Counted from the stretch's first letter, positions 2,034 to 44,734 are shown. The stretch: 64,000 nucleotides of DNA from an uncultured virus (IMG/VR IMGVR_UViG_2061766007_000649) (IMGVR_UViG_2061766007_000649), one strand, 5' to 3'. Program-made: numbers and translations. The notes: generated by a model from the letters alone, not told the origin.

Positions 2034-3353
2034 TTATAATGCTTTTAGTTGTTCGTAGAGAGATTCAAGATTCGGTTTTATCCATTTCCTATCTCCATTA
2101 CAAACAGTACAATCTTGACTTATAGTTTCTTTCAATGCCTCCATCTGCTCCTCATTGGGTTTCCAAGAATATTTATGAAAATATCTTTCTATTTTCTCCC
2201 AGTCTCCTACCAAAAACGCTTTTTCAATCTCTTCGCACTCACTATTAGATAAACACATTTTCCCATTTGGTCTAATTTTATCGCAATACTTCATAAAAGC
2301 CAATGCTATTGCGTTTCTGGCCGTTTGAAAACCTTCTTTATATGATTCTTTTAATTGTTTTGGCTGAGGATGGATGGATTCGAGAAAATGAATATATCCG
2401 NNNNNNNNNNNNNNNNNNNNNNNNNNNNNNNNNNNGATTTCTTTTACCAAACTTATAAGACCAATTCTCATTTTCTCATCTTCCTCGCTCCATTCTTGTT
2501 TTGGCTGAAAGTTAATTCTTTCTGGAAGTTCTTGAAGCCAATGGATTTCTTCGGGCTTGCACTTTTTCCCGAATTTGGCGGCTATTGTGATATTATTTAA
2601 CATATCATAATCCTTCTCGCTCCAAGCGGACTTTGGCAAGTTATATTCTCCATCACGAATAGCTTTTAGAACCAAAATCTTTCCGTCATAACCACAGAAT
2701 GATTTAGAGGCTTTTTCATAGTCGTCTATTATAGAGTCTAACAGTTTTATCTCTTCCTCGTTCCACTCTGCAGGCTTGCAAAGACCGAATTGTTCTGGAT
2801 GGTCAATAACATCACTTCTCCCTGCCATTATTCCTTGGTAGAAATCAAGAGGAGGGACGCCATTTTCAGCGCGAGGCTTCTGCTCTTTCTGATAGTCGCA
2901 TTTTTCAAACCAATGCTTTTGAATGTATTGTAGCTGGGTAAGTCCATCTCTTTCTTCTGGGTTCTCTTTCCAAATATTACCGAGTTCCCATATACCAAGA
3001 ATGGTTTCACGAGAAGGTATGGGTTTCTGCTCTTTCTGCTTATCTTCCCTTCCGTGCTGATAACCGTCATTATATCCACTTTGATAAATGTCTTTGCGAA
3101 GTTTGTCAATATCAACTTTCTGCTCTTTCAGCTTTTCGAGCCAAGAAATACATTCCGGCGGAGAGAAAGGCCACCCCTTTTTCCAAGTACCGTGATTTAA
3201 AATGTCGATTAAGAACTTCCTTATCCTCTCGTCCTCGCTCTCGCGGAGTTCGGGGAAATAATGTTCTGCATCTTCTTTGGTCGCTCCATGAAGCCCGGGA
3301 TACAAATCTCGCATCCATGCAAGAGCCTCTTTGTATTTCTGTTCGTAGTTCAT
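2034..3353 (-). CDS. modular repeat protein (WSEED-type repeats)
   Basis: 439 aa with repeats EWNEEEIK, AWSEKDYD, EWSEEDEK, WKPNEEQM. Confidence 0.85.
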   Translation of the reverse strand: MNYEQKYKEALAWMRDLYPGLHGATKEDAEHYFPELRESEDERIRKFLIDILNHGTWKKGWPFSPPECISWLEKLKEQKVDIDKLRKDIYQSGYNDGYQHGREDKQKEQKPIPSRETILGIWELGNIWKENPEERDGLTQLQYIQKHWFEKCDYQKEQKPRAENGVPPLDFYQGIMAGRSDVIDHPEQFGLCKPAEWNEEEIKLLDSIIDDYEKASKSFCGYDGKILVLKAIRDGEYNLPKSAWSEKDYDMLNNITIAAKFGKKCKPEEIHWLQELPERINFQPKQEWSEEDEKMRIGLISLVKEIXXXXXXXXXXXXGYIHFLESIHPQPKQLKESYKEGFQTARNAIALAFMKYCDKIRPNGKMCLSNSECEEIEKAFLVGDWEKIERYFHKYSWKPNEEQMEALKETISQDCTVCNGDRKWIKPNLESLYEQLKAL

Positions 3354-3386
3354 TTTTCTCTTAATTATACATTATAAATAAAAAAT

Positions 3387-3412
3387 AAAGGGAGGACATA
3401 AATCCTCCCTTT
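3387..3412 (-). terminator. intrinsic terminator
   Basis: AAAGGGAGGA-cataaa-TCCTCCCTTT; upstream A-run reads as a U-tail on the minus strand. Confidence 0.7.
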
Positions 3413-3419
3413 GACTCAA

Positions 3420-3528
3420 AAGAATAAGTGTAAACTAATAAGATGTGAATATGATTAACTATCAACTAATACAACACTATATGACCGACAAACGTTTTCA
3501 GGAAATTTATTAGTTCACACTTATTCTT
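3420..3528 (-). repeat. 22-bp inverted repeat with 65-nt spacer (candidate structured RNA)
   Basis: AAGAATAAGTGTAAACTAATAA (3420-3441) vs TTATTAGTTCACACTTATTCTT (3507-3528); the single mismatch is a G-U pair on the minus strand. Confidence 0.75.
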
Positions 3529-3586
3529 ATTTTATTCAGCAAGGATTGAGAAAATTGACTCAAGTACTCTCTTTAATTTATCAGCA

Positions 3587-7474: not shown

Positions 7475-8068
7475 ATGGTAGTAATTTTAGGAACAGCCCA
7501 TTCAAAAAGCACTCCTGGCAAATGCAGTCCAGATAAAACTCTTAGAGAGTATACTTACTCCAGGGAGATCTGCAAGAAAATAAAGGAGCAACTTATGGCT
7601 AAGGGCATAATAACTGTTATAGACATAGAAGGGGATGAAGAAATTTCTCTCCAGAACAGATGCAATATAGTAAATAAGTACTGTGCTCAATTTGGAAAAG
7701 ACAATTGTATATATGTATCTGTACATGTAAATGCTGCCGGTATGGGAGATAAGTGGATGAGTGCTAAGGGATGGTCGGTTTTTGTGTGTCCTATGGCATC
7801 TCAAAATTCAAGAACTCTGGCACAAACTCTCTGCACAACTGCTTTATCCAAGAATCTTAAAGGCAATCGTTCAGTTCCTATTAATAAATACTGGACATCA
7901 AATCTCTATGTTTTGAAGAATACCAAGTGTCCTGCAGTACTTACAGAGAATCTGTTCCAAGACAATAAGGAGGATGTAGCATTTTTACTTTCAGAGAAAG
8001 GAAAACAGACTATCACTGAAGTACATGTTGAAGGAATATTGACTTATCTTAAAACTTTAGGAAAATGA
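7475..8068 (+). CDS. N-acetylmuramoyl-L-alanine amidase (Amidase_3) endolysin
   Basis: Zn ligand/catalytic motifs ILGTAH, RE, SVHVNAAG, LYVLKNTKCPAVLTENLFQDN. Confidence 0.92.
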   Translation: MVVILGTAHSKSTPGKCSPDKTLREYTYSREICKKIKEQLMAKGIITVIDIEGDEEISLQNRCNIVNKYCAQFGKDNCIYVSVHVNAAGMGDKWMSAKGWSVFVCPMASQNSRTLAQTLCTTALSKNLKGNRSVPINKYWTSNLYVLKNTKCPAVLTENLFQDNKEDVAFLLSEKGKQTITEVHVEGILTYLKTLGK

Positions 8069-14292: not shown

Positions 14293-14322
14293 AAAGACAC
14301 AGATTTTTATCTGTGTCTTTTT
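14293..14322 (+). terminator. intrinsic terminator
   Basis: AAAGACACAGAT-tttt-ATCTGTGTCTTTTT. Confidence 0.75.
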
Positions 14323-14427
14323 ATTTTGATTTATCACAAATTTTTCATATATNNNNNNNNNNNNNNNNNNNNNNNNNNNNNNNNNNNNNNNNNNNNNNNN
14401 NNNNNNNNNNNNNNNNNNNNNNNNNNN

Positions 14428-15107
14428 CAGTAAATTCTGGTATTACTGACTTAAGGACTATTAGAGATGTCTATAATAGTTATGCTGAAGGTGGCCCTAT
14501 TGAGGATGAGTTTGTGGGACCTCCAGCACCCTATATTCCTTCTGATAGCATCAAGAATTATATTAAAGGAGCGGAGGCATTTAGAAGTAATTGGTATAAA
14601 GANNNNNNNNNNNNNNNNNNNNNNNNNNNNNNNNNNNNNNNNNNNNNNNNNNNNNNNNNNNNNNNNNNNNNNNNNNCAGATGATTACTTTGATGGTCTTG
14701 TAACTAGATTTGCTAGAAGAATGTCACAGCTTACTCCAAACATTGACAGACTTACACAAAATCAGAAGGATGCCCTTTTCAGCTACTTTTATAATATAGG
14801 CGAGGGAACCTATTCAAGGAAGAGCCCTAAGATGCAGAAGGCCCTACAAGATATGGATTGGGATGCTGTGATTCAAAACATTGATGCTGGGTATAATGAT
14901 AAAAAGAATCCGGGATTGAGGAAAAGAAGAGACTATGAAAGAGCACTGTTTGAAATGGATATTCCTCGTCCTCTACAGCCTATTCCTCCAGCAGTTAATA
15001 GAGAACCCCTGTATAATCCAACAATTAGCAGATTTAATACTACTATTCCTTTTAAAAATGGCAAAGAAGAGGTATTTAACCCCTTTATGTTTAGTCTTAA
15101 ACCCTAA
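14428..15107 (+). CDS. GH24 phage lysozyme (start hidden in gap)
   Basis: IKGAEAFR catalytic Glu, LTQNQKDALFSYFYNIG, GLRKRRDYERALF. Confidence 0.85.
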
Positions 15108-21759: not shown

Positions 21760-24158
21760 ATGAAGGATAATTATATAGGATTCCCCCAACAACAACTTCC
21801 CCTCACAAGTAAGGGCAAGAAATGGAGAAAAGCATGTGTTGATTGGGGAACTGACCAAGCTACTATCACATATAGTCCAGTAAGAAAGTCATTAATTCAT
21901 AAGAAGATTAACTATGATTTGTTAAATGGCATTCTTCATATGCAGGACCTGGAGGCAGTGATAAATCCTAACCGTATTGAGGCTGGGTTTATTCCTGATA
22001 GAATCCAGCATTATCCTATTATGAATGCCAAATTAAATATTCTTAGAGGCGAAGAGTCTAAAAGAGTATTTGATTTTAAAGTTATAGTTACTAACCCTAA
22101 TGCTATTTCTGAAATTGAGGAGCAAAAGAAGCAGGAAGTCTTTGCCAGACTTCAGCAAACTATTATGGAAAGTGCTCAGTCTCAGGAAGAGCTTGAACAG
22201 AAGATTCAGAAATTGGGGCAATATTATACATATGAATATCAGGACATCCGTGAAATTAGAGGCAATGCTGTTTTACAGCACTACATGAAGGAATATAATA
22301 TTCCTTTTATGTTCAATCAGGGCTTCATGGATGCTATGGCTGTTGGAGANNNNNNNNNNNNNNNNNNNNNNNNNNNNNNNNNNNNGTAGAGAGGTTAAAT
22401 CCTTTAAAGGTAAGAGTGTTCAAATCTGGATACTCCAATAGAATAGAAGACGCTGATATGATTATTCTCGAAGACTACTGGTCTCCGGGAAGAATTATTG
22501 ATACCTATTATGATGTTCTGACCACCAAGGATGTTAAGTACATAGAGAATATTCCTTTTGCCAATGATGCATCTGATACAGACTCTATGGATAATATTGA
22601 TGAAAGAAGAGGCTTCATAAATATGCACATGATTGGTGATGTGTTTGAAAGCCAGCCCTTTGATCCAAATTATCTATTTGCTGCTAGCGATGAGGCGGAT
22701 GATTTACTCCCGTATGACCTCGCTGGTAACATTAGAGTTTGCAGAGTGTTTTGGAAATCAAGAAGAAAGATTAAAGAAATTAAATCTTATGATTTTCAAA
22801 CAGGTGAAGAGGTCTTCAATTTCTACCCTGAAACCTACATTCCTAAAGAGGAATTAGGAGAGGAGGAGAAAGTGTTTTGGATAAACGAAGCTTGGGAAGG
22901 TACAAAGATTGGCGAGGAGGTTTATGTCAATATGAGGCCCAGACCAGTCCAGTACAACAGACTTTCCAATCCTTCAAAGTGTCATTTTGGTATTATTGGT
23001 TCCATCTATAATCTCAATGATGACAGGCCATTCTCTATGGTTGATATGATGAAGCAGTACAATTATTTGTATGATGCTATTCATGACAGACTTAATAAAT
23101 TAATGGCCAGAAACTGGGGCAAGATAGTAAGGCTAGACCTTGCTAGAGTTCCTAAGGGTTGGACAGTTGAAAAGTGGATGTACTATGGGGAGACTATGGG
23201 TCTTGCCGTTGAGGACTCCTTTAAGGAAGGCAACATTGGTGCTGCCACTGGTAAGATTGCTGGTGCTCTTAATAATAATTCTACTGGAGTAATTGATGCT
23301 GAGCTAGGTAATTCTATTCAGCAGAACATCAATCTGCTTGAATTTATCAAGATGGAAATGTCTGAAGTTGTGGGTATTACCAAGCAGAGAGAGGGCCAAA
23401 TTGCTAATAGAGAAACTGTTGGTGGCGTTGAAAGGGCTACTCTACAATCTTCACATATTACTGAGTGGGTATTTACCATCCATGAAGACCTGAAGAGAAG
23501 AGTTCTTGAGTGCTTACTTGAAACTGCTAAGATTGCTTTTAGAGGTAGGAGTAAGAAATTCCAATATATCTTGCCAGACTTTACTCAAACTATTATAGAT
23601 ATAGATGGTGATGAGTTTGCTGAATGTGACTACGGTTTGGTGGTTGATAACAGTGCTCCTACTCAGGATTTAAGTAATAAAATTGATATGCTTGCTCAGG
23701 CAGCTCTTCAAAATCAGACGCTTTCATTCTCTACTATTATGAGACTTTACAGTTCAGCATCTCTTGCAGAAAAGCAGAGAATGGTTGAAAGAGATGAGAA
23801 TGAAATGAGAGAAAGGGCTCAGCAGGCACAGCAGGAGCAATTGCAAGCCAAGCAACAACAGGCACAAATGGAGATGCAGGCAAAGCAGGAAGAGATACAA
23901 ATGAAAGACCAGCTTAACATGAGAGACAATGAAACTAAGATTCTTGTTGCTACCATTTCTGCAAAGAATAATGAAGATGATGGTATTCAAGAACCAGAGT
24001 ACTCTCAGGAAGCTAAAGATAAATTAATGGAATCAATGCGGCAGTTTGATGCCAGACTTAGATTGGATAGGGACAGACTTGAGTTTGATAAAAAGAAGGC
24101 TGCCACAGATGCCAGACTAAAAGAAAAACAAATTAACAAAAAGACGATTAGTAAATAA
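21760..24158 (+). CDS. portal protein
   Basis: about 800 aa across gap; HYPIMNAKLNILRGEESKR, WINEAWEGTKIG, GITKQREGQI; follows TerL as in Crassvirales. Confidence 0.9.
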
Positions 24159-24502
24159 TGGAACACTTTTGGGAAATAATTGGTTATCTTGGAACTGCTT
24201 TTGCTGGAACCTTCTTTGGATGGCTCTTTAGCAGAAAGAAAGAAAAGGTTGAATTAGAGGGAACTAAAGTACAGAACTTCGATGCTGCACTTGATGCATA
24301 TAAGAAGATGTATGAGGATATGATTGGTGATTTAAAAGAGCAGGTGGAAGACCTTAAAACTGAGAACAATGGTTTAAAGGAAGAACTCTCTGAAACTCGC
24401 AAACAAATCATAACTCTCACCAACTTTGTTCTGGCCAGTGCCATGCAGGGGCAAAAGCCTGATGTAAATAACCTAGATGCATTAAAAGAAATCATTAAAT
24501 AA
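24158..24502 (+). CDS. TM plus coiled-coil protein (holin-like)
   Basis: N-terminal TM then heptads. Confidence 0.65.
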   Translation: MEHFWEIIGYLGTAFAGTFFGWLFSRKKEKVELEGTKVQNFDAALDAYKKMYEDMIGDLKEQVEDLKTENNGLKEELSETRKQIITLTNFVLASAMQGQKPDVNNLDALKEIIK

Positions 24503-24510
24503 TTAATAAA

Positions 24511-24888
24511 ATGAGAAAGCAAATTGAATTGAAAATTGAGGTTGGTGATGCCAACTATGTTAAGCCCGGTGAATACTTTGCTCAGTTAGACGCCAACAAT
24601 CAGCTTACTGCCATCAAGCGCAGAAATGATGACCTTACTCTAACAGATATTGTTGACACCCCAGTTGCTGTTGAGACGAACAAGGAGGTTACTATTACCA
24701 CAAGTCCCGCCACTGTCAATCCTACTTCTGGTAAAGACGCTATGGCTAAGGCTACTGTGACTGTTGCTACTGAAACTAAAAACCAAGAAGTTTCTATTGC
24801 ATCTCTAACTGCAGGTGACACTCTTGAAATTACTCCTTCTTCAAACAAGGTTGGTCTTACAAAGGTTACAATTAGCTTTACTGAGTAA
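24511..24888 (+). CDS. putative structural/fibre protein
   Basis: Thr/Val-rich, internal repeat VNPTSGKDAMAKATVT / ITPSSNKVGLTKVTIS. Confidence 0.65.
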   Translation: MRKQIELKIEVGDANYVKPGEYFAQLDANNQLTAIKRRNDDLTLTDIVDTPVAVETNKEVTITTSPATVNPTSGKDAMAKATVTVATETKNQEVSIASLTAGDTLEITPSSNKVGLTKVTISFTE

Positions 24889-25013
24889 TGGCTGAAAAGA
24901 AAAGAAAAGTTAAAACTGGGGGAAGACCCAAACCTTTAGCACATCCTCCGGGATTAACTAGAAGTAGGAGGAGATATGGATGCGGAGGAGGTCTCACGAA
25001 AAAGACTGCATAA
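24888..25013 (+). CDS. small basic peptide (41 aa) with YGCGG motif
   Basis: MAEKKRKVKTGGRPKPLAHPPGLTRSRRRYGCGGGLTKKTA*; TAATG coupling. Confidence 0.55.
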   Translation: MAEKKRKVKTGGRPKPLAHPPGLTRSRRRYGCGGGLTKKTA

Positions 25014-25362
25014 AGTGACTATTGGCAGCTTAAAGATAATCCCTATGTTGCTAGCTGCAATNNNNNNNNNNNNNNNNNNNNNNNNNNNNNNNNNNNNNNN
25101 NNNNNNNNNNNNNNNNNNNNNNNNNNNNNTGGCATTCTTATACTTAGCCAGTTATTGTTTTAGATTCTGTAGTTACCACAGGATGTTTCTACATTATATA
25201 GTAGTCTGTAATATTTTAACTGCATATGATTACTATGTGGGAATACCGATTTCTGGGGTAGTCCTGTTGCTCATTAATTTAATTATAGCCGGAGCATTCT
25301 TGTTTATAATTTTATATTTACACCAAAAACATGTTAGAGGCCATAAAGAGTCAGTTGCTTAG
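24976..25362 (+). CDS. multi-pass membrane protein
   Basis: about four hydrophobic segments; FRFCSYHRMFLHYI. Confidence 0.75.
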   Translation: MDAEEVSRKRLHKVTIGSLKIIPMLLAAXXXXXXXXXXXXXXXXXXXXXXXXAFLYLASYCFRFCSYHRMFLHYIVVCNILTAYDYYVGIPISGVVLLLINLIIAGAFLFIILYLHQKHVRGHKESVA

Positions 25363-27658: not shown

Positions 27659-28615
27659 ATGGCTATTAAGAAAATAAAACTTCCAGATAATACTACTGAG
27701 GATATAAATGACCCAAGATTGCCTGCTGTAACGACTACAGATAATGGAAAGCTGCTGGGAGTAGATGGAGGCATCTGGTCCAAAGTTAATAAGCCAAGCT
27801 ATACGCTGGACGATGTGGCAGATGGAAGCACGAGGAAGTTGGCGAATTATCTGCCGTTGACAGGCGGGACAATCTCCAACGCAAACTACGGGCAGATATT
27901 GACCGTTTACCGCAATTCTTCGTCTGGGGATAGCACGATTACATTTCAGAATTCCGCATCTGTCCTCGGCTATATAGGGGTTACGAGTGGTGGTGCTCCT
28001 TGCTTCCGGGATACGAGCGCAACCACACATACCATCTACCACTCCGGTAACTCAAATTTATCAACTGTTGATTGGGCGGCAAAGACCTTGACTTTGGCGC
28101 TTAGCGCACTGAGCCCGAAATATTGTACAAACGGAGCCTATGGCCTTGCGAAGGGAAGCACAATATCTGGCGGTATGACTGATAATGATGGTTGTCTATA
28201 TTATCCTGGTCAACTTTTAAGAACATACGCCACGACGTATGATGTTCAAGGCAACATAACTGCATCAGGTACAATCACGCCCGGTTCTGACACCCGAATC
28301 AAAGACAATCAAGAGGAGATAGCATCAGACCACGCATTTGAAATTCTCGAAAATCTCAACCCGAAGTCTTGGACTTGGAACGAAGATGCGGGAGAGAATC
28401 TTGTTGGTAAGAAAGCCGCAGGTTTGGTTGCGCAAGAAGTTAAAGAGGTCCTCCCCGAGGCAGTCAATATCTCTAAGACAGACAAGTTCGAAGACTTCCA
28501 TTCGCTGAACTACAATACTATCCAGGGCTATGAGATTGCGGCTATTAAAGGTTTAATTGAAGAAGTTAAATCCCTTAAAGCTGAAATAGCAGAACTTAAG
28601 AAACAAATCAAATAA
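27659..28615 (+). CDS. tail fibre with C-terminal intramolecular chaperone (peptidase S74)
   Basis: YLPLTGGT; SDTRIKDN...GLVAQEVKEVLPEAV...SLNY...AIK plus terminal coiled coil. Confidence 0.85.
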   Translation: MAIKKIKLPDNTTEDINDPRLPAVTTTDNGKLLGVDGGIWSKVNKPSYTLDDVADGSTRKLANYLPLTGGTISNANYGQILTVYRNSSSGDSTITFQNSASVLGYIGVTSGGAPCFRDTSATTHTIYHSGNSNLSTVDWAAKTLTLALSALSPKYCTNGAYGLAKGSTISGGMTDNDGCLYYPGQLLRTYATTYDVQGNITASGTITPGSDTRIKDNQEEIASDHAFEILENLNPKSWTWNEDAGENLVGKKAAGLVAQEVKEVLPEAVNISKTDKFEDFHSLNYNTIQGYEIAAIKGLIEEVKSLKAEIAELKKQIK

Positions 28616-28637
28616 ACTTAAACAAGTTACTAATAAA

Positions 28638-28672
28638 AAGTCTCTCACAGAGCAATCTGTGGGGGGCTTTAG
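28638..28672 (+). terminator. intrinsic terminator
   Basis: AAGTCTCTCACAGA-gcaa-TCTGTGGGGGGCTTT with G-U pairs. Confidence 0.7.
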
Positions 28673-28750
28673 TATTATTGTTTTTAGCATAATAATTTAC
28701 ATNNNNNNNNNNNNNNNNNNNNNNNNNNNNNNNNNNNNNNNNNNAAAATT

Positions 28751-29632
28751 ATGGCAGAAGATACTAAAACTTATGTCTTTGGTGGTGACCAGGTTCCTGC
28801 TTGGCTTGCCTATGGTAATAACAACAATGGTTGGTTTGGTGGTAATGGCTTAGCTGGTGGCGCTCTTGGCTTCCTTTTAGGCCTTGTCTTTGGTAATGGT
28901 GGCTTCGGTAACTGGGGTGGTTTCAATGGTGGCAATGGTGCCGCTGCTGCTTCTCTTGGTGCTCAGGCTACTGCTTATAATAACACTGACCTTCTGATGA
29001 ATGCTATTAATGGTACTGATGCTGATATTAGAGCCCTTGCTACTATGTCCAATAGTGACTTTGACTCTATGAAGACTGCTCTTGCTACTCTTAATGCTGG
29101 TCTTGTGAATGTTGGTTCTCAGATTGGTATGAGTTCTCTGCAGGTTGTCAATGCTATTCAGTCTGGTAATGCTGCTCTGGCTGCTCAGCTTGCTCAGTGT
29201 TGCTGCGAGAACAGACTTCTCACAACTCAGCAAGGCTATGAAGCTAGAATTCAAACCATTGAGCAAACTAATCAATTAGGTTCTCAGGCTGACAGAAATG
29301 CCAAAGCCATCACTGACGCTATTGCAGCTCAAACAGTTGCAATGAATGACGGGTTCTGTGCTATCAAGGAGAGAGAACTCCAGAGCAAGATTGACACTCA
29401 ATCTGAAATTATAACTCAACTTAGAGGTCAGATTGACAACGCCAACCAGACTGCTCAGATAGCCGCTATGCTTGCTCCTATTAAGAGCGAGGTTGATTCT
29501 ATTAAGGCTTCCCAACCAAACACTGTTCCTGTTCAATGGCCTAACCTTGTTGCCGTGAATAATACTCCTTATTCTGGGGGTTTCTATGGTTATGGCTATG
29601 GTTATGGTAATGGCGGTTCCTATTGGGGCTAA
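28751..29632 (+). CDS. Gly-rich hydrophobic / coiled-coil protein with CCC motif, function unknown
   Basis: GGNGLAGGALGFLLGLVFG, long heptads, QLAQCCCENR, GY-rich C-terminus. Confidence 0.9.
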   Translation: MAEDTKTYVFGGDQVPAWLAYGNNNNGWFGGNGLAGGALGFLLGLVFGNGGFGNWGGFNGGNGAAAASLGAQATAYNNTDLLMNAINGTDADIRALATMSNSDFDSMKTALATLNAGLVNVGSQIGMSSLQVVNAIQSGNAALAAQLAQCCCENRLLTTQQGYEARIQTIEQTNQLGSQADRNAKAITDAIAAQTVAMNDGFCAIKERELQSKIDTQSEIITQLRGQIDNANQTAQIAAMLAPIKSEVDSIKASQPNTVPVQWPNLVAVNNTPYSGGFYGYGYGYGNGGSYWG

Positions 29633-29649
29633 AGTATAGGAGGNNNNNN

Positions 29650-29980
29650 NNNNNNNNNNNNNNNNNNAATACATTAACATCAATGGAATCCCAACAATAG
29701 AGGTGAGGAGAATTGTAGTTTCGGATACTTCAGTGGTATTCCAGTTCAGGCCAGACTTTGACGGAACTCCTTTCAGGGGTTTACTCTTAGTCTATATGCC
29801 TGAAGCTATCCCTACTGGTACTACCACAACTTTACCTGTTCAACTTGCAATGGCGGGCAATACTCAAACATTAACCACTGCTGGTGGAGAGGATGTTACT
29901 GTTGCTGATATGGCGGGTACTGGGGTNNNNNNNNNNNNNNNNNNNNNNNNNNNNNNNNNNNNNNNNNNNNNNNNNNNNNN
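29650..29980 (+). CDS. small beta-rich protein of the CCC cassette (ends in gaps)
   Basis: YININGIPTIEV...FRGLLLVYMPEAIPTGTTTTLPV...VADMAGTG. Confidence 0.7.
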
Positions 29981-30487
29981 NNNNNNAAATTTATATATTT
30001 CATAGGGGAGACAATCCCAGAATGGAAATCGGATATGTTGTAAATCAGCCTATCCCCAGACCTAAGTATCAGTTGCCTGCTGCATTTGGGCAGCCACAAG
30101 AAACTGTAGTTGATNNNNNNNNNNNNNNNNNNNNNNNNNNNNNNNNNNNNNNNNACCTATAATTATAATAACTTGCCTGCACAGCAAGATGTAGCAGACT
30201 CAGTCAGTAATGGTGAGAGTTTAATTGTTTCAGACAGCAGAGATGCTATTAGCTCTGAAATAATCAATCTTAAGCAGAAGAGCCTTGATATTGCCAATAG
30301 CAAAGATTATCACCTAGCTATGGTAGATAAGTACGATAAGGTTCTTTTAGAGATTCATCCAGAGATGGCAGAGAAACAGGAGCAAAAGCAAGAAATGGAT
30401 ACTCTCAAAAAGCAAATGGATGAGATGTCTAAAAGTATTGCCGCCCTTATGGAAGCCAACAAGGATTTGATTGCTAGGCTAACTTAA
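29975..30487 (+). CDS. cassette protein with C-terminal coiled coil (start in gap)
   Basis: LYIFHRGDNPRMEIGYVV...LLEIHPEMAEKQEQKQEMDTLKKQM. Confidence 0.7.
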
Positions 30488-30499
30488 AAGTGTACTAAT

Positions 30500-30727
30500 A
30501 TGAAAATGTGGGAAATTAGAGAACAAGACAGCCACAAGGATGATTATAGAAGTGGCTATAGAGGAAGCTATCGCTATGGCAGCAGAATGGGTATGAAGAG
30601 CCCAGATGAGGCTTATGATGAAGGCTACGAGTGTGGCTATGAGGATGGTTATGCTAAAGCTATGAAAGACACTTTCTACTCTCATAGTGATAAAGATTCT
30701 TATGGTGAAAGAAGAATGTCGCGGTAA
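30500..30727 (+). CDS. low-complexity Tyr/Gly/Arg/Ser protein
   Basis: YRSGYRGSYRYGSR; AYDEGYECGYEDGY. Confidence 0.75.
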   Translation: MKMWEIREQDSHKDDYRSGYRGSYRYGSRMGMKSPDEAYDEGYECGYEDGYAKAMKDTFYSHSDKDSYGERRMSR

Positions 30728-30737
30728 GTTTAATCTT

Positions 30738-30765
30738 GGGGAGTAGAAGTCTACTCCCCTTTATT
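30738..30765 (+). terminator. intrinsic terminator/attenuator inside cassette
   Basis: GGGGAGTAGA-ag-TCTACTCCCC followed by TTT. Confidence 0.7.
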
Positions 30766-30776
30766 GTTTTTAGATT

Positions 30777-31184
30777 ATGAGACTAGATTATAAAGAAAAG
30801 TTTCCAGATGGAATGGAGGAATATCTCTCTATGAATGGTTGGCACTTCAATAAGAAGATGTGTGAGTGGGCTTCTTCTAGAATGTATAAGGAGAATAGAC
30901 AGGGCAAAAAGGAATATATTGAACCCTATACCAGGGAATCATTTAACAAGCTTTGCAATAACTTTGGTATAAAAGTAGAAGCTAAGGGCTATGATGATGT
31001 ATATATTGCCAATATGTGCAAGGCTGATTTCTTAGGAAGTTCTGTTCTAGATGAAATCAATTTAGTGCAGTATGTTAAGGATGTTGTGGAAGACCCAGAT
31101 GCATATGAGGGAATGCCCTTCACTAGATTCTATGCTGACTGCATTGGTTCTGGCACTCCTATTCCTTGGGGGGATGTGCTATGA
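30777..31184 (+). CDS. hypothetical protein of cassette
   Basis: YLSMNGWHFNKKMCEWA...ANMCKADF...DPDAYEG...FYADC. Confidence 0.8.
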   Translation: MRLDYKEKFPDGMEEYLSMNGWHFNKKMCEWASSRMYKENRQGKKEYIEPYTRESFNKLCNNFGIKVEAKGYDDVYIANMCKADFLGSSVLDEINLVQYVKDVVEDPDAYEGMPFTRFYADCIGSGTPIPWGDVL

Positions 31185-31223
31185 TTGTACAAGATATATA
31201 CTTGGAGGACTATGATTGGTCTA
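31181..31223 (+). CDS. 5' fragment of a gene running into a 767-nt gap
   Basis: ATGA overlap; MIVQDIYLEDYDWS. Confidence 0.55.
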
Positions 31224-31990
31224 NNNNNNNNNNNNNNNNNNNNNNNNNNNNNNNNNNNNNNNNNNNNNNNNNNNNNNNNNNNNNNNNNNNNNNNNNNNNN
31301 NNNNNNNNNNNNNNNNNNNNNNNNNNNNNNNNNNNNNNNNNNNNNNNNNNNNNNNNNNNNNNNNNNNNNNNNNNNNNNNNNNNNNNNNNNNNNNNNNNNN
31401 NNNNNNNNNNNNNNNNNNNNNNNNNNNNNNNNNNNNNNNNNNNNNNNNNNNNNNNNNNNNNNNNNNNNNNNNNNNNNNNNNNNNNNNNNNNNNNNNNNNN
31501 NNNNNNNNNNNNNNNNNNNNNNNNNNNNNNNNNNNNNNNNNNNNNNNNNNNNNNNNNNNNNNNNNNNNNNNNNNNNNNNNNNNNNNNNNNNNNNNNNNNN
31601 NNNNNNNNNNNNNNNNNNNNNNNNNNNNNNNNNNNNNNNNNNNNNNNNNNNNNNNNNNNNNNNNNNNNNNNNNNNNNNNNNNNNNNNNNNNNNNNNNNNN
31701 NNNNNNNNNNNNNNNNNNNNNNNNNNNNNNNNNNNNNNNNNNNNNNNNNNNNNNNNNNNNNNNNNNNNNNNNNNNNNNNNNNNNNNNNNNNNNNNNNNNN
31801 NNNNNNNNNNNNNNNNNNNNNNNNNNNNNNNNNNNNNNNNNNNNNNNNNNNNNNNNNNNNNNNNNNNNNNNNNNNNNNNNNNNNNNNNNNNNNNNNNNNN
31901 NNNNNNNNNNNNNNNNNNNNNNNNNNNNNNNNNNNNNNNNNNNNNNNNNNNNNNNNNNNNNNNNNNNNNNNNNNNNNNNNNNNNNNNNNN

Positions 31991-32952
31991 GTGAAGAGAA
32001 TCAAGAAAAGGAAGACACCATTTCTGAACAAGAAACGGGTTCTTCTCCTACAAACAACTTCTACTCTTCCATTGCCAAAGCCTTAAAAGAAGATGGTGTC
32101 TTCCCTGATCTTGATGATGAAACAGTTGACGGAATTAAAGAGGCCGAAGATTTAGCAAAAGCTATTGAGTCCCAGATTAAAGCTGGACTTGATGAGAAGC
32201 AGCGCAGAATTGATGAGGCTCTTGATTTAGGTGTTGAGCCAGACCTCGTCAAGCAGTATGAAAATACTCTTGCATACTTAGACAGTATTACAGAGGAAAA
32301 GATTTCTGCTGAAGATGAGGCTGGTGAGAACCTAAGAAAGCAACTGATTTATCAGGATTTAATTAACAAGGGATATAGCAAAGATGAAGCTATGGAAGAG
32401 CTTGAAGACATCTTTGCAAGTGGCAGTGACCAGAAGAAAGCCAAAAGAGCATTATCTGCTAACAAGGACTTCTTTAAGTCTAACTACAAGAAGGTTGTAG
32501 AAGAGGCTAGACTGGAAACTGAGAAAGAGGCACAGGAAAGAGATAAGCAGGCTGCGGCACTAAAGAAATCCATCCTAGAGGATAAGGAAGTATTCAAGGA
32601 CCTTCAGGTGGACAAGGCTACTAGACAAAAGATTTATGACAATATTAGTAAGCCTGTTTACAAAGACAAGGAGACTGGTGAATACTTCACTGCTCTTCAA
32701 AAGTATGAGAGAGAAAACAAGACTGAATTCTTAAAGAATGTTGGTCTGCTATTTACTCTTACTGATGGCTTCAAAAACCTTGATGGTTTAGTTAAACCTC
32801 AGGTTAAGAAAGAAGTTAAAAAGGGTCTCAGAGAATTGGAACATACGCTGAACAATACAGCAAGGACCTCCAACGGCAATATTAAATTTGTGAGTGGAGT
32901 CAGTGATGATCCAAATTCATTCATCAATGGTAAATGGGACCTTGATGTGTAA
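31991..32952 (+). CDS. acidic pre-capsid protein (scaffold-like), start in gap
   Basis: acidic and helical; immediately upstream of MCP as in Crassvirales. Confidence 0.7.
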
Positions 32953-40241: not shown

Positions 40242-43200
40242 ATGCCTAGTCAGAAAGTACAATTCACGGTTAAAGGAATGTCAAGAGATTTAGCCGATTC
40301 CAAGTTTAACCCTGAATATGCATTTGAGAATAAAAATATTAGAATTACTCCTACTGAAAACAGTACCCTTCTCGTTCTTAGCAATGAGAAGGGGAATACT
40401 GTTATAGATACTCATACTAAATATAAAGGAGTGTCATACACTGTTTCTAGTAGAAAGGTTCTTGGGTATGCAGTTCTTTATAAGACTATAGTTCTTTTCT
40501 TTAAGGGCACAAATAATAATGTTGAGGAGGACTATATCAGCACTTTAAAGAGGAATAATACCGATACTCAATGGGAAGAGAACATTCTCTACAAGGGCAA
40601 TCTAAAGTTCAATGAGAACAATCCTATAGAAACTCTGCCTCTATATGAAGCGGAGGACATTCAAAAGGTATACTGGGTTGATGGTTTAAATCAGCCCAGA
40701 GTCATTAACATAGTGAATGATGAGGATCATGTAATTAGGGACAATGATAATACCCAGTTTGACTTTGTCACTACTCTTGCTTTAAATGAAGCAATTTTAA
40801 TAGAGAGAAAGCCAGATACTAGAGGAAGTTTTCCGGCAGGCGCTCTACAATATGCCATAACTTATTCAAAAAAGAATGGGCAGGAGTCAAGAATAGCTTG
40901 GATATCTAATGTTTACTATACCACATTTGAAGACAGAGCTGGTGCTCCAGATGAGCTAACTACTTCTTCTTATAAAATTACCATAGACTATNNNNNNNNN
41001 NNNNNNNNNNNNNNNNNNNNNNNNNNNNNNNNNNNNNNNAGGATGCAGGATTACAAACTAAGTTGGTTACTCAATTAGATATTAATCCTGACCAAAGTCA
41101 GAACTATGTTTATATTGATACCAATCTGTCTGGACAAACTATTACTCCTACTGACCTACTATATAAGGGAGGGGAAGAGTTAGTTGCTGACACCCTATCT
41201 ACAAAGGATAATACTCTATTCTTANNNNNNNNNNNNNNNNNNNNNNNNNNNNNNNNNNNNNNNNNNNNNNNNNNNNNNNNNNNNNNNNNNNTTATACTAT
41301 AATTGAGGGTTGGGAAGAAGAGGAAGGCTACTATCCTTACAAAAATCCACTACTTGAGAATACAGTTACCTATCTGAGAAGTGGAAATAAATATAGACTT
41401 GGAGTTCAAATTCAAGATGATAAGGNNNNNNNNNNNNNNNNNNNNTGGGAGACCAGTAATTAATCCTCTTGACCACTCATTAAGATTACCAAAGGTTCAG
41501 ATTACTCTTCCTTCAGGATTTGTAAGTGCCGCACTAACCGCTCATTATAAGAGAGTTAGACCAGTTGTTGTATATCCAGGGGTGAGTGAAAGGGGTGTTA
41601 TTGCCCAAGGTATAGTGTGTCCTACTGTATTTAGAAAAGATAGCAGACTGTCCAATAATCCATTTGCTCAATCTTCTTGGTTCTTTAGACCATATAATGC
41701 CAAGGGATATGCTGGAGATTCAGCATCAAAATACTCAGTAGAAGCCAGACNNNNNNNNNNNNNNNNNNNNNNNNNNNNNNNNNNNNNNNNNNNNNNNNNN
41801 NNNNNNNNNNNNNNNNNNNNNCTACCACTAACCCAAAGGACTACTATGTTGATGGCTCTATACTAAGTTTTTACTCTCCTGAAGTAAATGATACCCTAAT
41901 GGAGACAGACCTAGTTAATAGTGATATTAAGATAGTAGNNNNNNNNNNNNNNNNNNNNNNNNNNNNNNNNNNNNNNNNNNNNNNNNNNNNNNNNNNNNNN
42001 NNNNNNNNNNNNNNNNNNNNNNNNNNNNNNNNNNNNNNNNNNNNNNNNNNNNNNNNNNNNNNNNNNNNNNNNNNNNNNNNNNNNNNNNNNNNNNNNNNNN
42101 NNNNNNNNNNNNNNNNNNNNNNNNNNNNNNNNNNNNNNNNNNNNNNNNNNNNNNNNNNNNNNNNNNNNNNNNNNNNNNNNNNNNNNNNNNNNNNNNNNNN
42201 NNNNNNNNNNNNNNNNNNNNNNNNNNNNNNNNNNNNNNNNNNNNNNNNNNNNNNNNNNNNNNNNNNNNNNNNNNNNNNNNNNNNNNNNNNNNNNNNNNNN
42301 NNNNNNNNNNNNNNNNNNNNNNNNNNNNNNNCTGCGTGGAAGGACAACTTCTATGTTTTATATGCACAAAACTACGGACTTTATTTTGCCACTTACCCTT
42401 GGCATAAGGCTGGCTTATGGGAGAACCTTTCAGGAATAACAGAAAATAGCAGTATTATCACTAAGGTAATCTCCAACATCAGAATATCCCAGAACTTTGG
42501 TTATTACTCTACTTCAGGAGAAGAAACTGTTTCTACCGGAATCAGAGATAGGAGAATCTTTAGAAAAGAAANNNNNNNNNNNNNNNNNNNNNNNNNNNNN
42601 NNNNNNNNNNNNNNNNNNNNNNNNNNNNNNNNNNNNNNNNNNNNNNNNNNNNNNNNNNNNGCGCCACTTATATCAGATAACCAATATAATATATATGCAG
42701 CAGAAAGCTTTAATGGTACCCTAACTTCTCCAAGTGAATCGCCAATCACTACTGAATTTAAGAGCACTGCTCCTATTAATATTCAGTATAGGTCTACTGA
42801 CCATATAATTATTGCCTTAGAAAATGATGCTAACGGCAGAAGCGTTGAGCTTCCTACTCCATATTTTAGCTCTGATCCAAATGGTGATAAAACTATAAGT
42901 AAATATGAGGGAAATCTATTCTGGCTAGATGGTCAGGGAAGCNNNNNNNNNNNNNNNNNNNNNNNNNNNNNNNNNNNNNNNNNNNNNNNTATTATACTTC
43001 AGAGTATGGGACAGAGTATGTTATAAGATGTACTCCAGAGGGAGGTTCTGGTGATGACTATTTCCCTTGGACATTCACTGTTTGGAGATATACTGACGGT
43101 CAGTTTGTTAGTGACAACTTGCCTAGAACTGACTATAATATATTAGACGCCTCTGCTGCAACCTTGGTTGGTTCATTGCCTAACTTACTAGATTACTCTA

Positions 43201-44734
43201 CCTTCAACTTCTCAACAACTGATAGTGGTCATACCTGGACAGTTAGTAGTGCCTATCATTATAATGAAACTAAGATTTTGCCACAGGGAGTAGATTCTAC
43301 AAATGGAACCGAAGTGATGTGGGTTACTGAGTTGGTAAGACCTATTCCTGATGGTATCTTTGGTGGAAACAGTGAGTATGCTATTAAGAATAATAAGTGG
43401 TATCCTTGTGGGGAGCCAAAGAAGCTTGATATTAATGACAGAGTAATTGATGTAACAGAGGGAGACACTATATTTAATAGGTGGGATTGCTTAAAGACAT
43501 TGCCTTATACTCCAGAGGACACTAATCAGATAGTGGAGATAATGTCCTTTATGTGTGAGTCCTATATTAACACTGCTGGTAGATATGATAAGAATAGAGG
43601 CTTGCAGGACTATACTTTCCTTACAGATGCTGTTCCATTCAATCAAATTAACCCAGCATANNNNNNNNNNNNCACTTATAGAATTACTGACCTAGAGAAA
43701 AATAAGGAGACTGACTATCCTACTCTGGTCACTTGGTCTATGAGTAAAACTCTTGGTGAGGAGATAGATTCTTGGACACACATTGTGCTGGCTTCANNNN
43801 NNNNNNNNNNNNNNNNNNNNNNNNNNNNNNNNNNNNNNNNNNNNCAATTTTTGCTTTCCAGGATAAGGGCATTGCTGAGATTATTTATAATCCAACCACA
43901 GCAATTGCCACTACAGCCGGCGTTCCTATTGAAATTGCTAATTCAGGTAAGGTCGAGGGCAAGAGGTATATATCTGAAAATATAGGATGCACTAATAAGT
44001 GGTCTATTTGTACTACTCCTGCGGGTATCTATTTCATAGACAGTATCAACAAGAAGGTATATTTATGGTCAGATNNNNNNNNNNNNNNNNNNNNNNAGCA
44101 GAATGGATTTACTTCTTGGTTTAATACTCAAATAAACAGAGTAAAAAGTGATGGCTGGAACTTCGAGGTATTTGATGACTTTGTTACTCAGTATGATAGG
44201 ACAGTTGGAGATGTTTACTTTATTAATAAAGATAAGTGTTTAGCCTTTAATGAAAGCCTTGCTACATTTACTTCATTCTATGACTATGAAAAAACTCCAT
44301 TCTTTATTAATCTAGATAACTACTGCGTTTCTGTACATAGCGGTAAACTCTGGGATCAGCATCTAGGACAATATAATATCTTCTTTGATGCCTCTCAGAA
44401 TCCAACTCCTAAACCCTATTGGACAGAGGTTGTGGTTAACCCAAATCCTACTCAAGACAAAATCTTTGATAACATTGAATTCAGAGCTGATAGCTGGAAT
44501 GGGGCTACTCTGNNNNNNNNNNNNNNNNNNNNNNAAAGTGCTTTAACTTGGCTAAAAGGTTATCCTTCTACTCTTAAAAAGAAGTTTAGAATATGGTATG
44601 CTAATATACCAAGAGATAAAACCAGTAAGAGGGATAGAATGAGGAACACCTGGTTACATCTAAAACTTGAAAAGAAAAACCCAGGAACTGAAAGAACAGT
44701 TCTGCATGACCTTCAAGTGAAATACTTCATCTAA
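40242..44734 (+). CDS. tail stabilisation/muzzle protein, about 1500 aa, gap-broken
   Basis: GMSRDL, KVYWVDGLNQPRVIN, GDTIFNRWDCLKT, GCTNKWSI, FTSFYDY, KKFRIW...RMRNTW. Confidence 0.8.

What the first reader, a model, noticed from the sequence alone, without database searches (positions are those of the whole stretch)
28700..31600. Self-contained six-gene cassette led by a fusion-protein-like CCC coiled-coil protein, inserted between portal/fibre and capsid genes
Seen: a terminator at 28638, then six tightly packed genes. The first protein (293 aa) has a Gly-rich hydrophobic segment (GGNGLAGGALGFLLGLVFG), long heptad helices interrupted by QLAQCCCENR, and a GYGYGY tail, with the strong T/C-ending codon bias of the capsid gene, which suggests high expression. 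It is followed by a small beta protein, a coiled-coil protein, a low-complexity YRSG/YxxGY protein, an internal terminator (30738) that would lower expression of the distal genes, and two more genes. Established: none of these correspond to the core Crassvirales head/tail set. Inference: a dedicated module building a multimeric, possibly disulfide-linked or membrane-inserting structure. The hydrophobic peptide + heptads + Cys cluster layout recalls class I viral fusion or pore-forming proteins; a protective matrix around virions is an alternative. I recall similar proteins in other gut phages but know no assigned function.
Basis: partly seen in the sequence, partly recalled or inferred. Interest (0 to 1): 0.75.

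Follow-up and report, generated by a model that had tools for sequence, protein, structure and literature searches.

The report
Mobile triple-cysteine rod cassette, function unknown
A six-gene add-on unit in a crAss-like gut phage, led by a very highly expressed, probably membrane-anchored rod protein with an invariant triple cysteine, recurs in many unrelated phages, and nobody yet knows what it does.

Summary
The cassette is real. Two terminator hairpins, five readable genes and a sixth (unreadable in my copy, seen in relatives) sit between an S74 tail-fibre gene and the scaffold-like and capsid genes of a crAss001-related phage. The genes keep their order in 34 of 34 related loci, but only 15 of those lie beside the capsid genes, so the block moves as a unit. 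One RNA contig covers genes 1-4 and stops just before the inner terminator.

Gene 1 uses codons like the two capsid shell proteins and unlike the other 60 ORFs scored. It has a short hydrophobic core with Gly/aromatic flanks, a predicted 126-residue helix, an invariant QLAxCCCE motif and a Gly-Tyr tail.

The family includes phage T5 gene T5.077 and genes of Clostridium perfringens phages, so a spanin role cannot explain the family. Nothing supports a class I fusion or pore-forming protein, and no fold or family match assigns a function.

Best reading (about 0.35): a mobile accessory late operon that builds an abundant, membrane-anchored, cysteine-locked rod acting on the infected cell's envelope around lysis. 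An optional virion fibre (0.2) and superinfection exclusion (0.15) remain open.

The parts
28637..28670 (+). Terminator-like hairpin that closes the tail-fibre operon upstream of the cassette
   Evidence: 15 pairs, 6 G-C, followed by a T-rich tail. The same hairpin stands in the relative L004.
28671..28750 (+). Intergenic region with the cassette's presumed promoter (partly unreadable in my copy)
   Evidence: In L004 a TAccTTTG box lies about 50 nt before the gene 1 start. It fits the Bacteroides -7 consensus TAnnTTTG, which I recall and did not test. RNA contig X1 record 1 begins about 38 nt before the start codon.
28751..29632 (+). Gene 1, 293 aa. It has a Gly/aromatic-flanked hydrophobic core, a long helix with an invariant CCC (C150-152) and a Pro-rich stretch with a Gly-Tyr tail.
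   Evidence: (phrog_16490, E 3.4e-37).
29644..29986 (+). Gene 2, about 108 aa. Both ends lie in unreadable stretches, and the readable part is 29668-29926.
   Evidence: phrog_31654. The full ORF is seen in L004 at 3226-3552. Alignment A3.
29927..30487 (+). Gene 3, about 170 aa: a small beta-barrel, a helical hairpin and a long C-terminal helix. The start is unreadable, and the apparent frame change at 30115-30154 is an artefact of the unreadable stretch.
   Evidence: phrog_28898. RNA contigs have 16 letters fewer there. AlphaFold2 mean pLDDT 88.5 on the L004 orthologue.
30500..30727 (+). Gene 4, 75 aa, a charged Tyr/Gly-rich protein with GYxxGYxxGY spacing
   Evidence: Only weak hits below the cut-offs, to Yae1_N and FliH.
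30738..30759 (+). Internal terminator-like hairpin between genes 4 and 5
   Evidence: 9 pairs, 6 G-C. Conserved in L004. RNA contigs from two studies end at 30724 and 30722.
30777..31184 (+). Gene 5, 135 aa, Pfam DUF7841
   Evidence: E 1.3e-27; phrog_38431. Present in 34 of 34 related cassettes.
31181..31600 (+). Gene 6, about 138 aa in relatives. Only the first 43 bases are readable here and the end is approximate. Relatives carry an HExxH...E motif and a C-terminal CxxC.
   Evidence: Alignment A5 has H88, E89, H92 and E108 invariant in 14 of 14 sequences.

Best explanation
The cassette is a mobile accessory ('moron-like') late operon, not part of the core crAss virion. Genes 1-4 are made from their own promoter in very large amounts. 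Genes 5-6 are made by read-through of a terminator.

Gene 1 inserts into the host cytoplasmic membrane by its short hydrophobic core. It forms a parallel coiled-coil oligomer about 19 nm or longer, in which the invariant CCC sits in the helix core as a thiol layer (a disulfide knot or a metal site). It ends in a sticky Gly-Tyr tail. Genes 2-4 are partners of the rod, and gene 6, a small zincin-like peptidase, may process one component.

The assembly acts on the envelope of the infected cell at or near lysis, in timing, completeness of breakdown or release of progeny.

Shown: the operon structure, its mobility, the expression signal, the family's range and the long helix. Inferred: membrane insertion and its direction, oligomerisation, partner binding and the link to lysis.
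For: Unit and mobility:
- The order g1..g6 is kept in 34 of 34 crAss-type loci that have room downstream. Gene 5 is found in 34, gene 3 in 30, gene 2 in 29, gene 6 in 28 and gene 4 in 17. Only 15 of the 34 are followed by the scaffold-like gene.
- Among 50 crAss001-like loci with enough upstream DNA, 42 carry the gp27-gp30 block at this site and 8 carry this cassette. L163 carries both.

Transcription:
- One 2027-nt RNA contig spans from about 28713 to 30724. A second study's contig ends at 30722, just before the hairpin at 30738.

Expression:
- Codon usage groups gene 1 with the two capsid shell proteins. The same holds in 7 of 14 related loci examined.

Membrane rod:
- The best 15-residue stretch has a mean hydropathy of 1.81 across 94 family members.
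- AlphaFold2 gives a helix at 129-254, with pLDDT above 90 for residues 170-250.
- Hydrophobic periodicity is 3.5-3.67, and the CCC continues the core spacing.

Not a core virion part:
- crAss001 has a 73% identical capsid protein and a solved virion (PMC10172136, passages read). It has no homologue of gene 1.

Link to lysis:
- A peptidoglycan hydrolase lies within about 1.5 kb of the cassette in 7 of 17 distinct contexts: L001, L020, L025, L027, L028, L037 and L163.
- Holin or endolysin families lie within 5 kb in 3 of 6 distant loci examined.
- The same site in crAss001 holds genes annotated as lysis regulator, holin and peptidase.

Accessory nature:
- The remote member T5.077 has its own promoter and terminator in the T5 record (hhalign probability 97.6% and 95.2%).
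- T5.077 was scored 'Not Fit' in a knock-down screen.
Against: - Capsid-like codon usage fits a stoichiometric structural protein better than a lysis accessory.
- In this window the cassette is not next to a lysis enzyme. The amidase is at 7475-8065 and a gp28-like gene at 24158-24502.
- Closeness to lysis genes may only reflect where accessory genes tend to land.
- Topology is unresolved. The flanks carry almost no charge. Where they differ, K/R lies on the C-terminal side in 31 sequences against 6, with 57 equal. That would put the rod in the cytoplasm.
- In T5 and in Clostridium phage CPD1 the gene lies among early or accessory genes, not late ones.
- The T5 screen found only 17 Fit genes of 162, so 'Not Fit' is weak evidence.
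- Oligomerisation and partner binding were not modelled.
Confidence: 0.35

Rival explanations
1. Gene 1 is an optional virion decoration or head fibre. It is made in capsid-like amounts and binds the capsid surface, and genes 2-4 are adaptors or tips. In this clade it stands in for the crAss001 head fibres.
For: - Codon usage matches that of the major and auxiliary capsid proteins.
- The cassette lies directly before the scaffold-like and capsid genes here and in 15 of 34 loci.
- No gp21 or gp29 homologue was found in the window.
- None of the 8 cassette-bearing crAss001-like loci has a gp29 hit within 10 kb upstream of the capsid gene, against 31 of 42 others. These lineages are not independent.
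- The crAss001 paper says that uncharacterised proteins may play the fibre role in other groups (PMC10172136, passage read).
- GenBank records name relatives 'outer capsid protein/viral fiber'.
Against: - The family has a membrane-like hydrophobic core.
- The family occurs in T5 under an early-region promoter, and in CPD1 between the lysis and replication genes.
- It is carried by phages with unrelated capsids: podoviruses, siphovirus-like phages and T5.
- There is no match to any solved crAss001 virion chain.
- The GenBank names are unexplained. I judge them to be coiled-coil look-alikes, but did not trace them.
Confidence: 0.2
2. The cassette is a superinfection-exclusion or receptor-masking device. 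A dense lawn of membrane-anchored rods blocks DNA entry by other phages, or stops progeny from sticking to infected cells and debris.
For: - It has the layout of an accessory unit with its own promoter and terminator.
- In temperate phages it lies beside the lysogeny genes. L053 has it next to a serine integrase, and L020 has a LexA-like repressor downstream.
- In L053 its codon usage differs from that of its neighbours.
- T5.077 lies in the early region.
- The bitopic outline resembles known exclusion proteins. This comparison is recalled, not tested.
Against: - In the crAss-type phages it is a late gene on the structural strand.
- An invariant QLAxCCCE motif across hosts as far apart as E. 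coli, Bacteroidales and Clostridia is not expected of a steric shield or a receptor-specific mask.
- No homology to any exclusion protein was tested.
Confidence: 0.15
3. The cassette encodes a new kind of spanin. Gene 1 bridges the inner and outer membranes (N-terminal anchor, periplasmic rod, C-terminal aromatic tail in the outer membrane) and fuses or breaks them at lysis.
For: - An N-terminal hydrophobic segment plus a rod of about 19 nm or more is close to the width of the periplasm.
- The tail ends in an aromatic residue in many members.
- The cassette is often close to lysis genes.
Against: - Family members occur in phages of hosts without an outer membrane. Three cultured Clostridium perfringens phages carry it, and 6 of 7 genome loci carry Clostridia-class labels.
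- L163 carries the cassette as well as the gp27/gp28-type genes.
- No conserved lipoprotein partner exists. Only 1 lipobox-like hit was found in 560 start sites of 8 cassettes, and it is not conserved.
- The expression level is far above what a spanin should need.
Confidence: 0.04
4. One reading: gene 1 is a class I fusion-like or pore-forming protein that inserts into a target membrane.
For: A hydrophobic Gly-rich peptide, long helices and a cysteine cluster give a superficial likeness.
Against: - There is no second anchor and no hairpin of two heptad regions in the model.
- There is no structural match. None of 160 Foldseek rows has E <= 0.001.
- The phage has no envelope.
- The family is spread over phages with quite different entry machines.
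Confidence: 0.04
5. The cassette makes a cross-linked matrix. The hyper-expressed Cys/Tyr/Gly-rich proteins form a coat or aggregate around progeny or cell remains, as very late hyper-expressed proteins do in some insect viruses.
For: - Very high expression.
- Gly-Tyr or Gly-Cys repeat tails.
- A peptidase partner.
- The unit seems dispensable in T5 (weak evidence).
Against: No evidence of self-assembly was obtained, the gut lumen is reducing, and the hydrophobic core argues for a membrane anchor.
Confidence: 0.07

Closest known systems
T5.077 of phage T5 and the unnamed family behind PHROGs 16490 and 9288
   Same: - A Gly-rich hydrophobic segment followed by long helices and the motif QLAECCCE.
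- hhalign gives 97.6% (E 3.3e-12, 115 columns) against the crAss-type profile and 95.2% (E 2.6e-8, including the CCC) against the distant profile.
- In T5 it also heads a small unit with its own promoter and terminator.
   Different: - T5.077 has two other partner genes, not genes 2-6.
- It lies in the early region.
- No function is known for it. A full-text search for 'T5.077' found no paper.
Spanins (lambda Rz/Rz1, T1 gp11)
   Same: - An N-terminal anchor with a coiled-coil rod.
- Cysteines that could link chains.
- Frequent closeness to lysis genes.
   Different: - No lipoprotein partner.
- The family is also present in phages of Gram-positive hosts.
- About twice the length of Rz. The Rz length is recalled.
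- Capsid-like expression.
Bitopic lysis regulators (T4 holin T, antiholin RI) and crAss001 gp27/gp28
   Same: One N-proximal membrane segment with a large non-membrane domain. The cassette occupies the site that holds gp27-gp30 in crAss001.
   Different: - hhalign finds no relation to gp27 (probability 0.1%).
- No holin family match.
- L163 has both sets.
- The features of T4 T and RI are recalled, not tested.
crAss001 head fibres gp21 and gp29
   Same: High copy number is expected of both, and gp29 lies at the same place in the genome (PMC10172136, passages read).
   Different: No sequence or profile match. The fibres are about 100-120 aa with no hydrophobic core.
Phage morons (autonomous accessory transcription units)
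   Same: - Own promoter and terminator.
- Present or absent among close relatives.
- Codon usage unlike the neighbours in L053.
   Different: It has six genes rather than one or two, and an expression signal equal to that of capsid genes.
Class I viral fusion proteins
   Same: A hydrophobic Gly-rich peptide and long helices.
   Different: No C-terminal anchor, no hairpin and no structural match. The virus has no envelope.

Membership tests
CCC-rod family (phrog_16490, T5.077-like, unnamed) | Profile match to the family model | tested here: met
   phrog_16490 E 3.4e-37 over residues 19-293. There are 544 representative clusters at E <= 0.001.
CCC-rod family (phrog_16490, T5.077-like, unnamed) | Invariant QLAxCCCE motif inside the long helix | tested here: met
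   C150-152 are at least 90% conserved in 80 sequences and invariant in 20. QLAQCCCE.R is invariant in 19 distant members.
CCC-rod family (phrog_16490, T5.077-like, unnamed) | N-proximal hydrophobic core with Gly/aromatic flanks | tested here: met
   The best 15-residue stretch has a mean hydropathy of 1.81 and starts at a median residue 40, in the 94 of 99 sequences that carry a CCC.
Spanins | Outer-membrane lipoprotein partner, or a lipobox in the same chain | tested here: not met
   1 lipobox-like pattern in 560 start sites of 8 cassettes, out of frame and not conserved.
Spanins | Confined to phages of hosts with an outer membrane | tested here: not met
   Clostridium perfringens phages CPD1, XP41-N3 and HMD-PC1 carry members. 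6 of 7 genome loci carry Clostridia-class labels.
Spanins | N-terminal membrane anchor with a periplasmic coiled coil | tested here: inconclusive
   The anchor-like core and the long helix are present. The side of the membrane on which the rod lies is unresolved.
Holins and antiholins | Match to a holin family model | tested here: not met
   No holin family in Pfam or PHROGs for any of the six genes.
Holins and antiholins | Encoded next to the endolysin | tested here: inconclusive
   Not so in the window (amidase at 7475-8065). A hydrolase lies within about 1.5 kb in 7 of 17 other contexts.
crAss001 head fibres (gp21; gp29 = Pfam Head_fiber_dimeric) | Sequence or profile match | tested here: not met
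   No Pfam hit, no PDB chain at E <= 0.1 and no tblastn hit of gp21 or gp29 in the window.
crAss001 head fibres (gp21; gp29 = Pfam Head_fiber_dimeric) | Present in the virion, bound in hexon pockets | not testable with these tools
   Needs virion proteomics or cryo-EM of a cassette-bearing phage.
Class I viral fusion proteins | C-terminal membrane anchor plus a fusion peptide, on an enveloped particle | tested here: not met
   The one hydrophobic segment lies near the N-terminus and the C-terminal 40 residues are Pro/Gly/Tyr-rich. The genome is that of a tailed crAss-like phage.
Class I viral fusion proteins | Two heptad regions that fold into a trimer of hairpins | tested here: inconclusive
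   The monomer model gives one continuous helix at 129-254. No oligomer could be modelled. Foldseek gave no match.
Phage moron (autonomous accessory unit) | Own promoter and terminator | tested here: met
   Hairpins, the -7-like box in L004 and the extent of the RNA contig.
Phage moron (autonomous accessory unit) | Present or absent among related phages and found at different places | tested here: met
   8 of 50 crAss001-like loci carry it. Only 15 of 34 cassettes lie next to the scaffold-like gene.
Phage moron (autonomous accessory unit) | Dispensable for growth | tested here: inconclusive
   Evidence exists only for the remote member T5.077, scored 'Not Fit' (supplement file 7). That screen found just 17 Fit genes of 162.
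Superinfection-exclusion membrane proteins (HK97 gp15, lactococcal Sie2009) | Homology or demonstrated exclusion | not tested
   No sequences of these proteins were at hand. The resemblance is recalled only.

The most novel reading that the evidence does not exclude
Gene 1 and its partners build a so far undescribed late phage structure. It would be a hyper-abundant lattice of membrane-anchored rods locked by a tri-cysteine layer (disulfide or metal), shared by phages of Gram-negative and Gram-positive hosts. It would remodel or mark the dying cell's envelope so as to govern release and survival of progeny. That would be a fourth kind of player beside holins, endolysins and spanins.
Probability: 0.2. 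Interest if true: 0.85.

Novelty: categorically new. Interest (0 to 1): 0.64.

Why it matters
- The lead protein belongs to one of the larger phage families without a function. The search returned 7507 proteins at E <= 0.001, capped at 8000 candidates, and 544 clusters at 50% identity.
- The family reaches from crAss-like gut and rumen phages to T5 and Clostridium phages.
- In this phage the gene carries the same expression signal as the capsid shell.
- A function would explain what many abundant gut phages spend a large share of late protein synthesis on.
- T5 and a cultured Bacteroides uniformis phage carry members, so the question can be tested directly at the bench.

Tried and rejected
Searches that found no informative match:
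- Sequence search of solved structures for gene 1 found nothing below E 0.27. Profile searches for genes 2, 3 and 6 found nothing credible.
- Foldseek against the PDB gave no row at E <= 0.001 for the gene 1 model or the gene 3 model.
- The wide VIA search for gene 3 gave a best Z of 6.7 (EF-P domain I, rmsd 1.8 A, 58 residues). That is below the tool's own caution line of 8, so I take it only as a common SH3/KOW-like barrel.
- BFVD gave 3 hits at E <= 0.001. The two that carry a name are uncharacterised phage proteins.
- The ESM Atlas gave only unnamed phage clusters or the label 'Spike protein/glycoprotein'.
- NCBIfam and PADLOC gave nothing near their cut-offs.

Pairwise comparisons that found no relation:
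- hhalign of gene 1 against crAss001 gp27.
- hhalign of genes 2 and 3 against the partner genes of the distant subfamily.
- BLASTP of the 125-aa ORF at 24511-24888 against gp29-type head fibres.

Runs that could not answer the question:
- A genome scan with the 80-sequence alignment could not run for lack of a conserved stretch.
- No whole genome is held for this window.
- RNA depth in X1 was 19.6 for the gene 1-4 contig against 3.9-5.1 for capsid contigs. It cannot rank genes, because the runs were chosen by gene 1 and contigs give one figure each.

Literature:
- Full-text searches for lysis genes of Crassvirales, DUF7841, 'outer capsid protein/viral fiber', T5.077, and glycine-zipper coiled-coil phage proteins found no paper on this family.
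- bioRxiv supplements are closed and could bear on the 'spanin' family named in the recoding preprint.


Full report
WHAT IS THERE

The window is a crAss-like phage related to crAss001.
- The ORF at 33085-34476 matches Pfam Crass_capsid (E 2.2e-196) and is 73% identical to the crAss001 capsid protein.
- Ring, auxiliary capsid, tail hub, muzzle and cargo families follow downstream.
- Upstream of the finding lies a tail-fibre gene with an S74 chaperone domain (27659-28615).
- Downstream lies a homologue of crAss001 gp31, 56% identical over the readable part 31993-32949, and then the capsid gene.

I also find genes at 28751-29632, about 29644-29986, about 29927-30487, 30500-30727, 30777-31184 and from 31181 onward.

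Several stretches of my copy read N. These hide the ends of genes 2 and 3 and nearly all of gene 6. The relative L004 shows six ORFs of 294, 108, 170, 75, 134 and 138 aa in the same places.

The N stretches are not true to length. RNA contigs have 16 letters fewer at 30115, and 91 letters where the window has 60 N. The apparent frame break in gene 3 is therefore an artefact.

CO-OCCURRENCE

A scan of viral contigs with gene 1 matched 133 stretches. Of these, 100 encode a relative and 80 were kept. I added two GenBank records.

37 loci carry the crAss-type gene 1 (30-96% identical), and 34 of them have at least 2700 bases downstream. Among those 34:
- gene 5 is found in 34, gene 3 in 30, gene 2 in 29, gene 6 in 28 and gene 4 in 17;
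- the order is the same in 34 of 34;
- only 15 are followed by the scaffold-like gene.

The block therefore travels as a unit.

TRANSCRIPTION AND EXPRESSION

In a bovine-gut RNA run, one 2027-nt contig starts about 38 nt before the gene 1 start codon and ends at 30724. A contig from a different study ends at 30722. Both stop just short of the hairpin at 30738.

In L004 a TAccTTTG box lies about 50 nt before the start codon. It fits the Bacteroides -7 consensus, which I recall and did not test. The inner hairpin is followed after about ten bases by the gene 5 start. Genes 5-6 must therefore depend on read-through. Contigs cannot prove transcript ends, so this is a consistent hint, not proof.

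The share of A-ending codons in four-fold boxes is 0.024 for the capsid gene, 0.033 for the auxiliary capsid gene and 0.040 for gene 1. The next ORF has 0.15 and the other 59 have 0.19-0.52 (63 ORFs scored). Gene 1 is similarly low (0.12 or less) in 7 of 14 related loci examined, and not in L001, L002, L010, L014, L029, L036 and L037.

ANATOMY OF GENE 1

Alignments of 80, 20 and 19 members show five features:
- a conserved N-terminal peptide;
- a short hydrophobic core flanked by Gly, Asn and aromatic residues;
- a helical part with the invariant QLAxCCCE;
- a Pro-rich stretch;
- a tail of Gly-Tyr/Trp/Phe repeats, or Gly-Cys repeats in the distant branch, that often ends in an aromatic residue.

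AlphaFold2 with the 80-sequence alignment gives a mean pLDDT of 69.8. It predicts short helices at 37-47 and 75-125 and one helix at 129-254 (pLDDT above 90 for 170-250). Both ends are disordered. At the usual 0.15 nm per residue, 126 helical residues make about 19 nm.

Hydrophobic periodicity is 3.5-3.67, and the CCC continues the 3-4 spacing of conserved core positions. In a parallel oligomer the thiols would therefore face each other. This is an inference.

The flanks of the hydrophobic core are almost uncharged, and the N-tail is acidic (1.3 K/R against 3.2 D/E). Where the flanks differ, K/R lies on the C-terminal side in 31 sequences against 6, with 57 equal, among the 94 sequences with a CCC. 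By the positive-inside rule this leans weakly towards a cytoplasmic rod. I treat the topology as open.

RANGE OF THE FAMILY

Earlier notes of this scan named T5.077 as a member, and I tested this. hhalign gives 97.6% (E 3.3e-12, 115 columns) and 95.2% (E 2.6e-8, across the CCC motif). In the T5 record, T5.077-079 stand between promoter P12 and a bidirectional terminator.

The distant branch keeps QLAQCCCE.R invariant in 19 sequences.
- It occurs in three cultured Clostridium perfringens phages.
- It occurs in 7 genome loci, of which 6 carry Clostridia-class labels and 1 a Bacteroidales label. These are MAG labels, so host assignment is soft. The cultured phages are firm.

A role that needs an outer membrane therefore cannot explain the family.

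NEIGHBOURHOODS

A peptidoglycan hydrolase lies within about 1.5 kb of the cassette in 7 of 17 distinct crAss-type contexts that are not simply 'before the scaffold gene'. One more, L015, has a DUF5675 gene, which is the family of crAss001 gp30.

In the distant branch:
- L053 reads holin, amidase, three small genes, the family member, one gene, then an integrase;
- L041 reads tail genes, two genes, the family member, three genes, then a holin;
- L064 and L049 have the member between a minor head protein and the scaffold gene;
- L038 has it among replication genes;
- in CPD1 it lies among small genes between the lysis and replication modules.

Among 50 crAss001-like loci with enough upstream DNA, 42 carry gp27-gp30 at the site and 8 carry the cassette. 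L163 carries the cassette directly before gp27- and gp28-like genes and an amidase. The cassette is therefore added to those genes, not swapped for them.

PARTNERS

- Gene 3 folds with confidence (pLDDT 88.5) into a small six-stranded barrel, a helical hairpin and a 40-residue helix. The barrel resembles EF-P domain I only at Z 6.7.
- Gene 6 has H-E-x-x-H and a Glu 16 residues later invariant in 14 of 14 sequences, plus CxxC. That is a zincin-like outline, but no Pfam family matched.
- Gene 5 is DUF7841. It also occurs alone before the scaffold gene in L148, L150 and L152.
- Gene 4 has GYxxGYxxGY spacing.
- None of genes 2-6 is detectable next to the distant family members (0 of 26 loci).

READING

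The evidence fits a mobile accessory operon whose lead protein is made in capsid-like amounts and is probably anchored in the cytoplasmic membrane as a cysteine-locked rod. I place its action at the envelope around lysis (0.35), on three grounds: the neighbourhoods, the site it shares with the crAss001 lysis-type genes, and a host range that points to the cytoplasmic membrane as the common target.

The strongest counter-signal is the capsid-like codon usage, together with the lack of any gp21 or gp29 homologue here. That keeps an optional virion fibre alive (0.2). Superinfection exclusion or debris masking is the third option (0.15). Spanin, fusion or pore, and matrix readings are weak.

The invariance of QLAxCCCE across such distant phages is not explained by any of these readings and is the best handle for experiments.

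The knock-down result for T5.077 ('Not Fit', supplement file 7 of PMC11879866) supports dispensability only weakly. That screen called 17 of 162 T5 genes Fit, and its T4 screen missed 13 of 50 known essential genes.

LIMITS

- No oligomer or partner complex could be modelled.
- Gene 2, gene 5 and gene 6 were not folded.
- Gene 6 and parts of genes 2-3 were read only in relatives.
- Host labels of metagenome bins are soft.
- RNA contigs give neither true ends nor levels.

Noticed in passing
window 24158-24502 and 24511-24888: Right after the portal gene lies a 114-aa protein with an N-terminal membrane segment and a coiled coil. It is 30% identical to crAss001 gp28, which is annotated 'lysis regulatory protein/holin'. 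Next comes a 125-aa ORF with the fourth-strongest codon bias in the window (A-share 0.15). That ORF shows no BLASTP likeness to gp29 head fibres.
   Followed up: partly
window 40242-44731: The muzzle protein matches are spread over five ORFs in different frames. Each break falls at a stretch that reads N, and such stretches are not true to length. The split is probably not real.
   Followed up: partly
window 7475-8065 and 14313-15104: An Amidase_3 gene and a protein with a phage-lysozyme domain lie 14-21 kb from the cassette. The phage's wall-degrading enzymes are therefore not next to it.
   Followed up: no
window 24976-25362: A 128-aa ORF with several hydrophobic stretches could be a holin-type membrane protein. 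It has no Pfam match.
   Followed up: no
L163 4262-8575: One crAss001-like contig carries the cassette, then gp27- and gp28-like genes, then an amidase with a PG_binding_1 domain, all directly before the scaffold-like gene.
   Followed up: partly
L148, L150, L152 (about 8186-8386 in L150 and L152): A gene 5-like (DUF7841) stretch stands alone just before the scaffold-like gene in phages without gene 1. Gene 5 may therefore work without the rod protein.
   Followed up: no
L022 1483-3169: A diversity-generating retroelement (bAvd-like protein and reverse transcriptase) lies about 3 kb upstream of the cassette.
   Followed up: no
L053 5953-7067: The family member and the next gene use C- and T-ending codons, while the surrounding late genes use G-ending codons. 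This suggests recent transfer into that temperate phage.
   Followed up: no
window 28745-29643 (runs X1-X18): Seventeen of the 24 listed runs that hold part of gene 1 are on record as RNA. Their organism labels are bovine, sheep or unspecified gut metagenomes. This phage lineage therefore seems to live in ruminant guts.
   Followed up: partly
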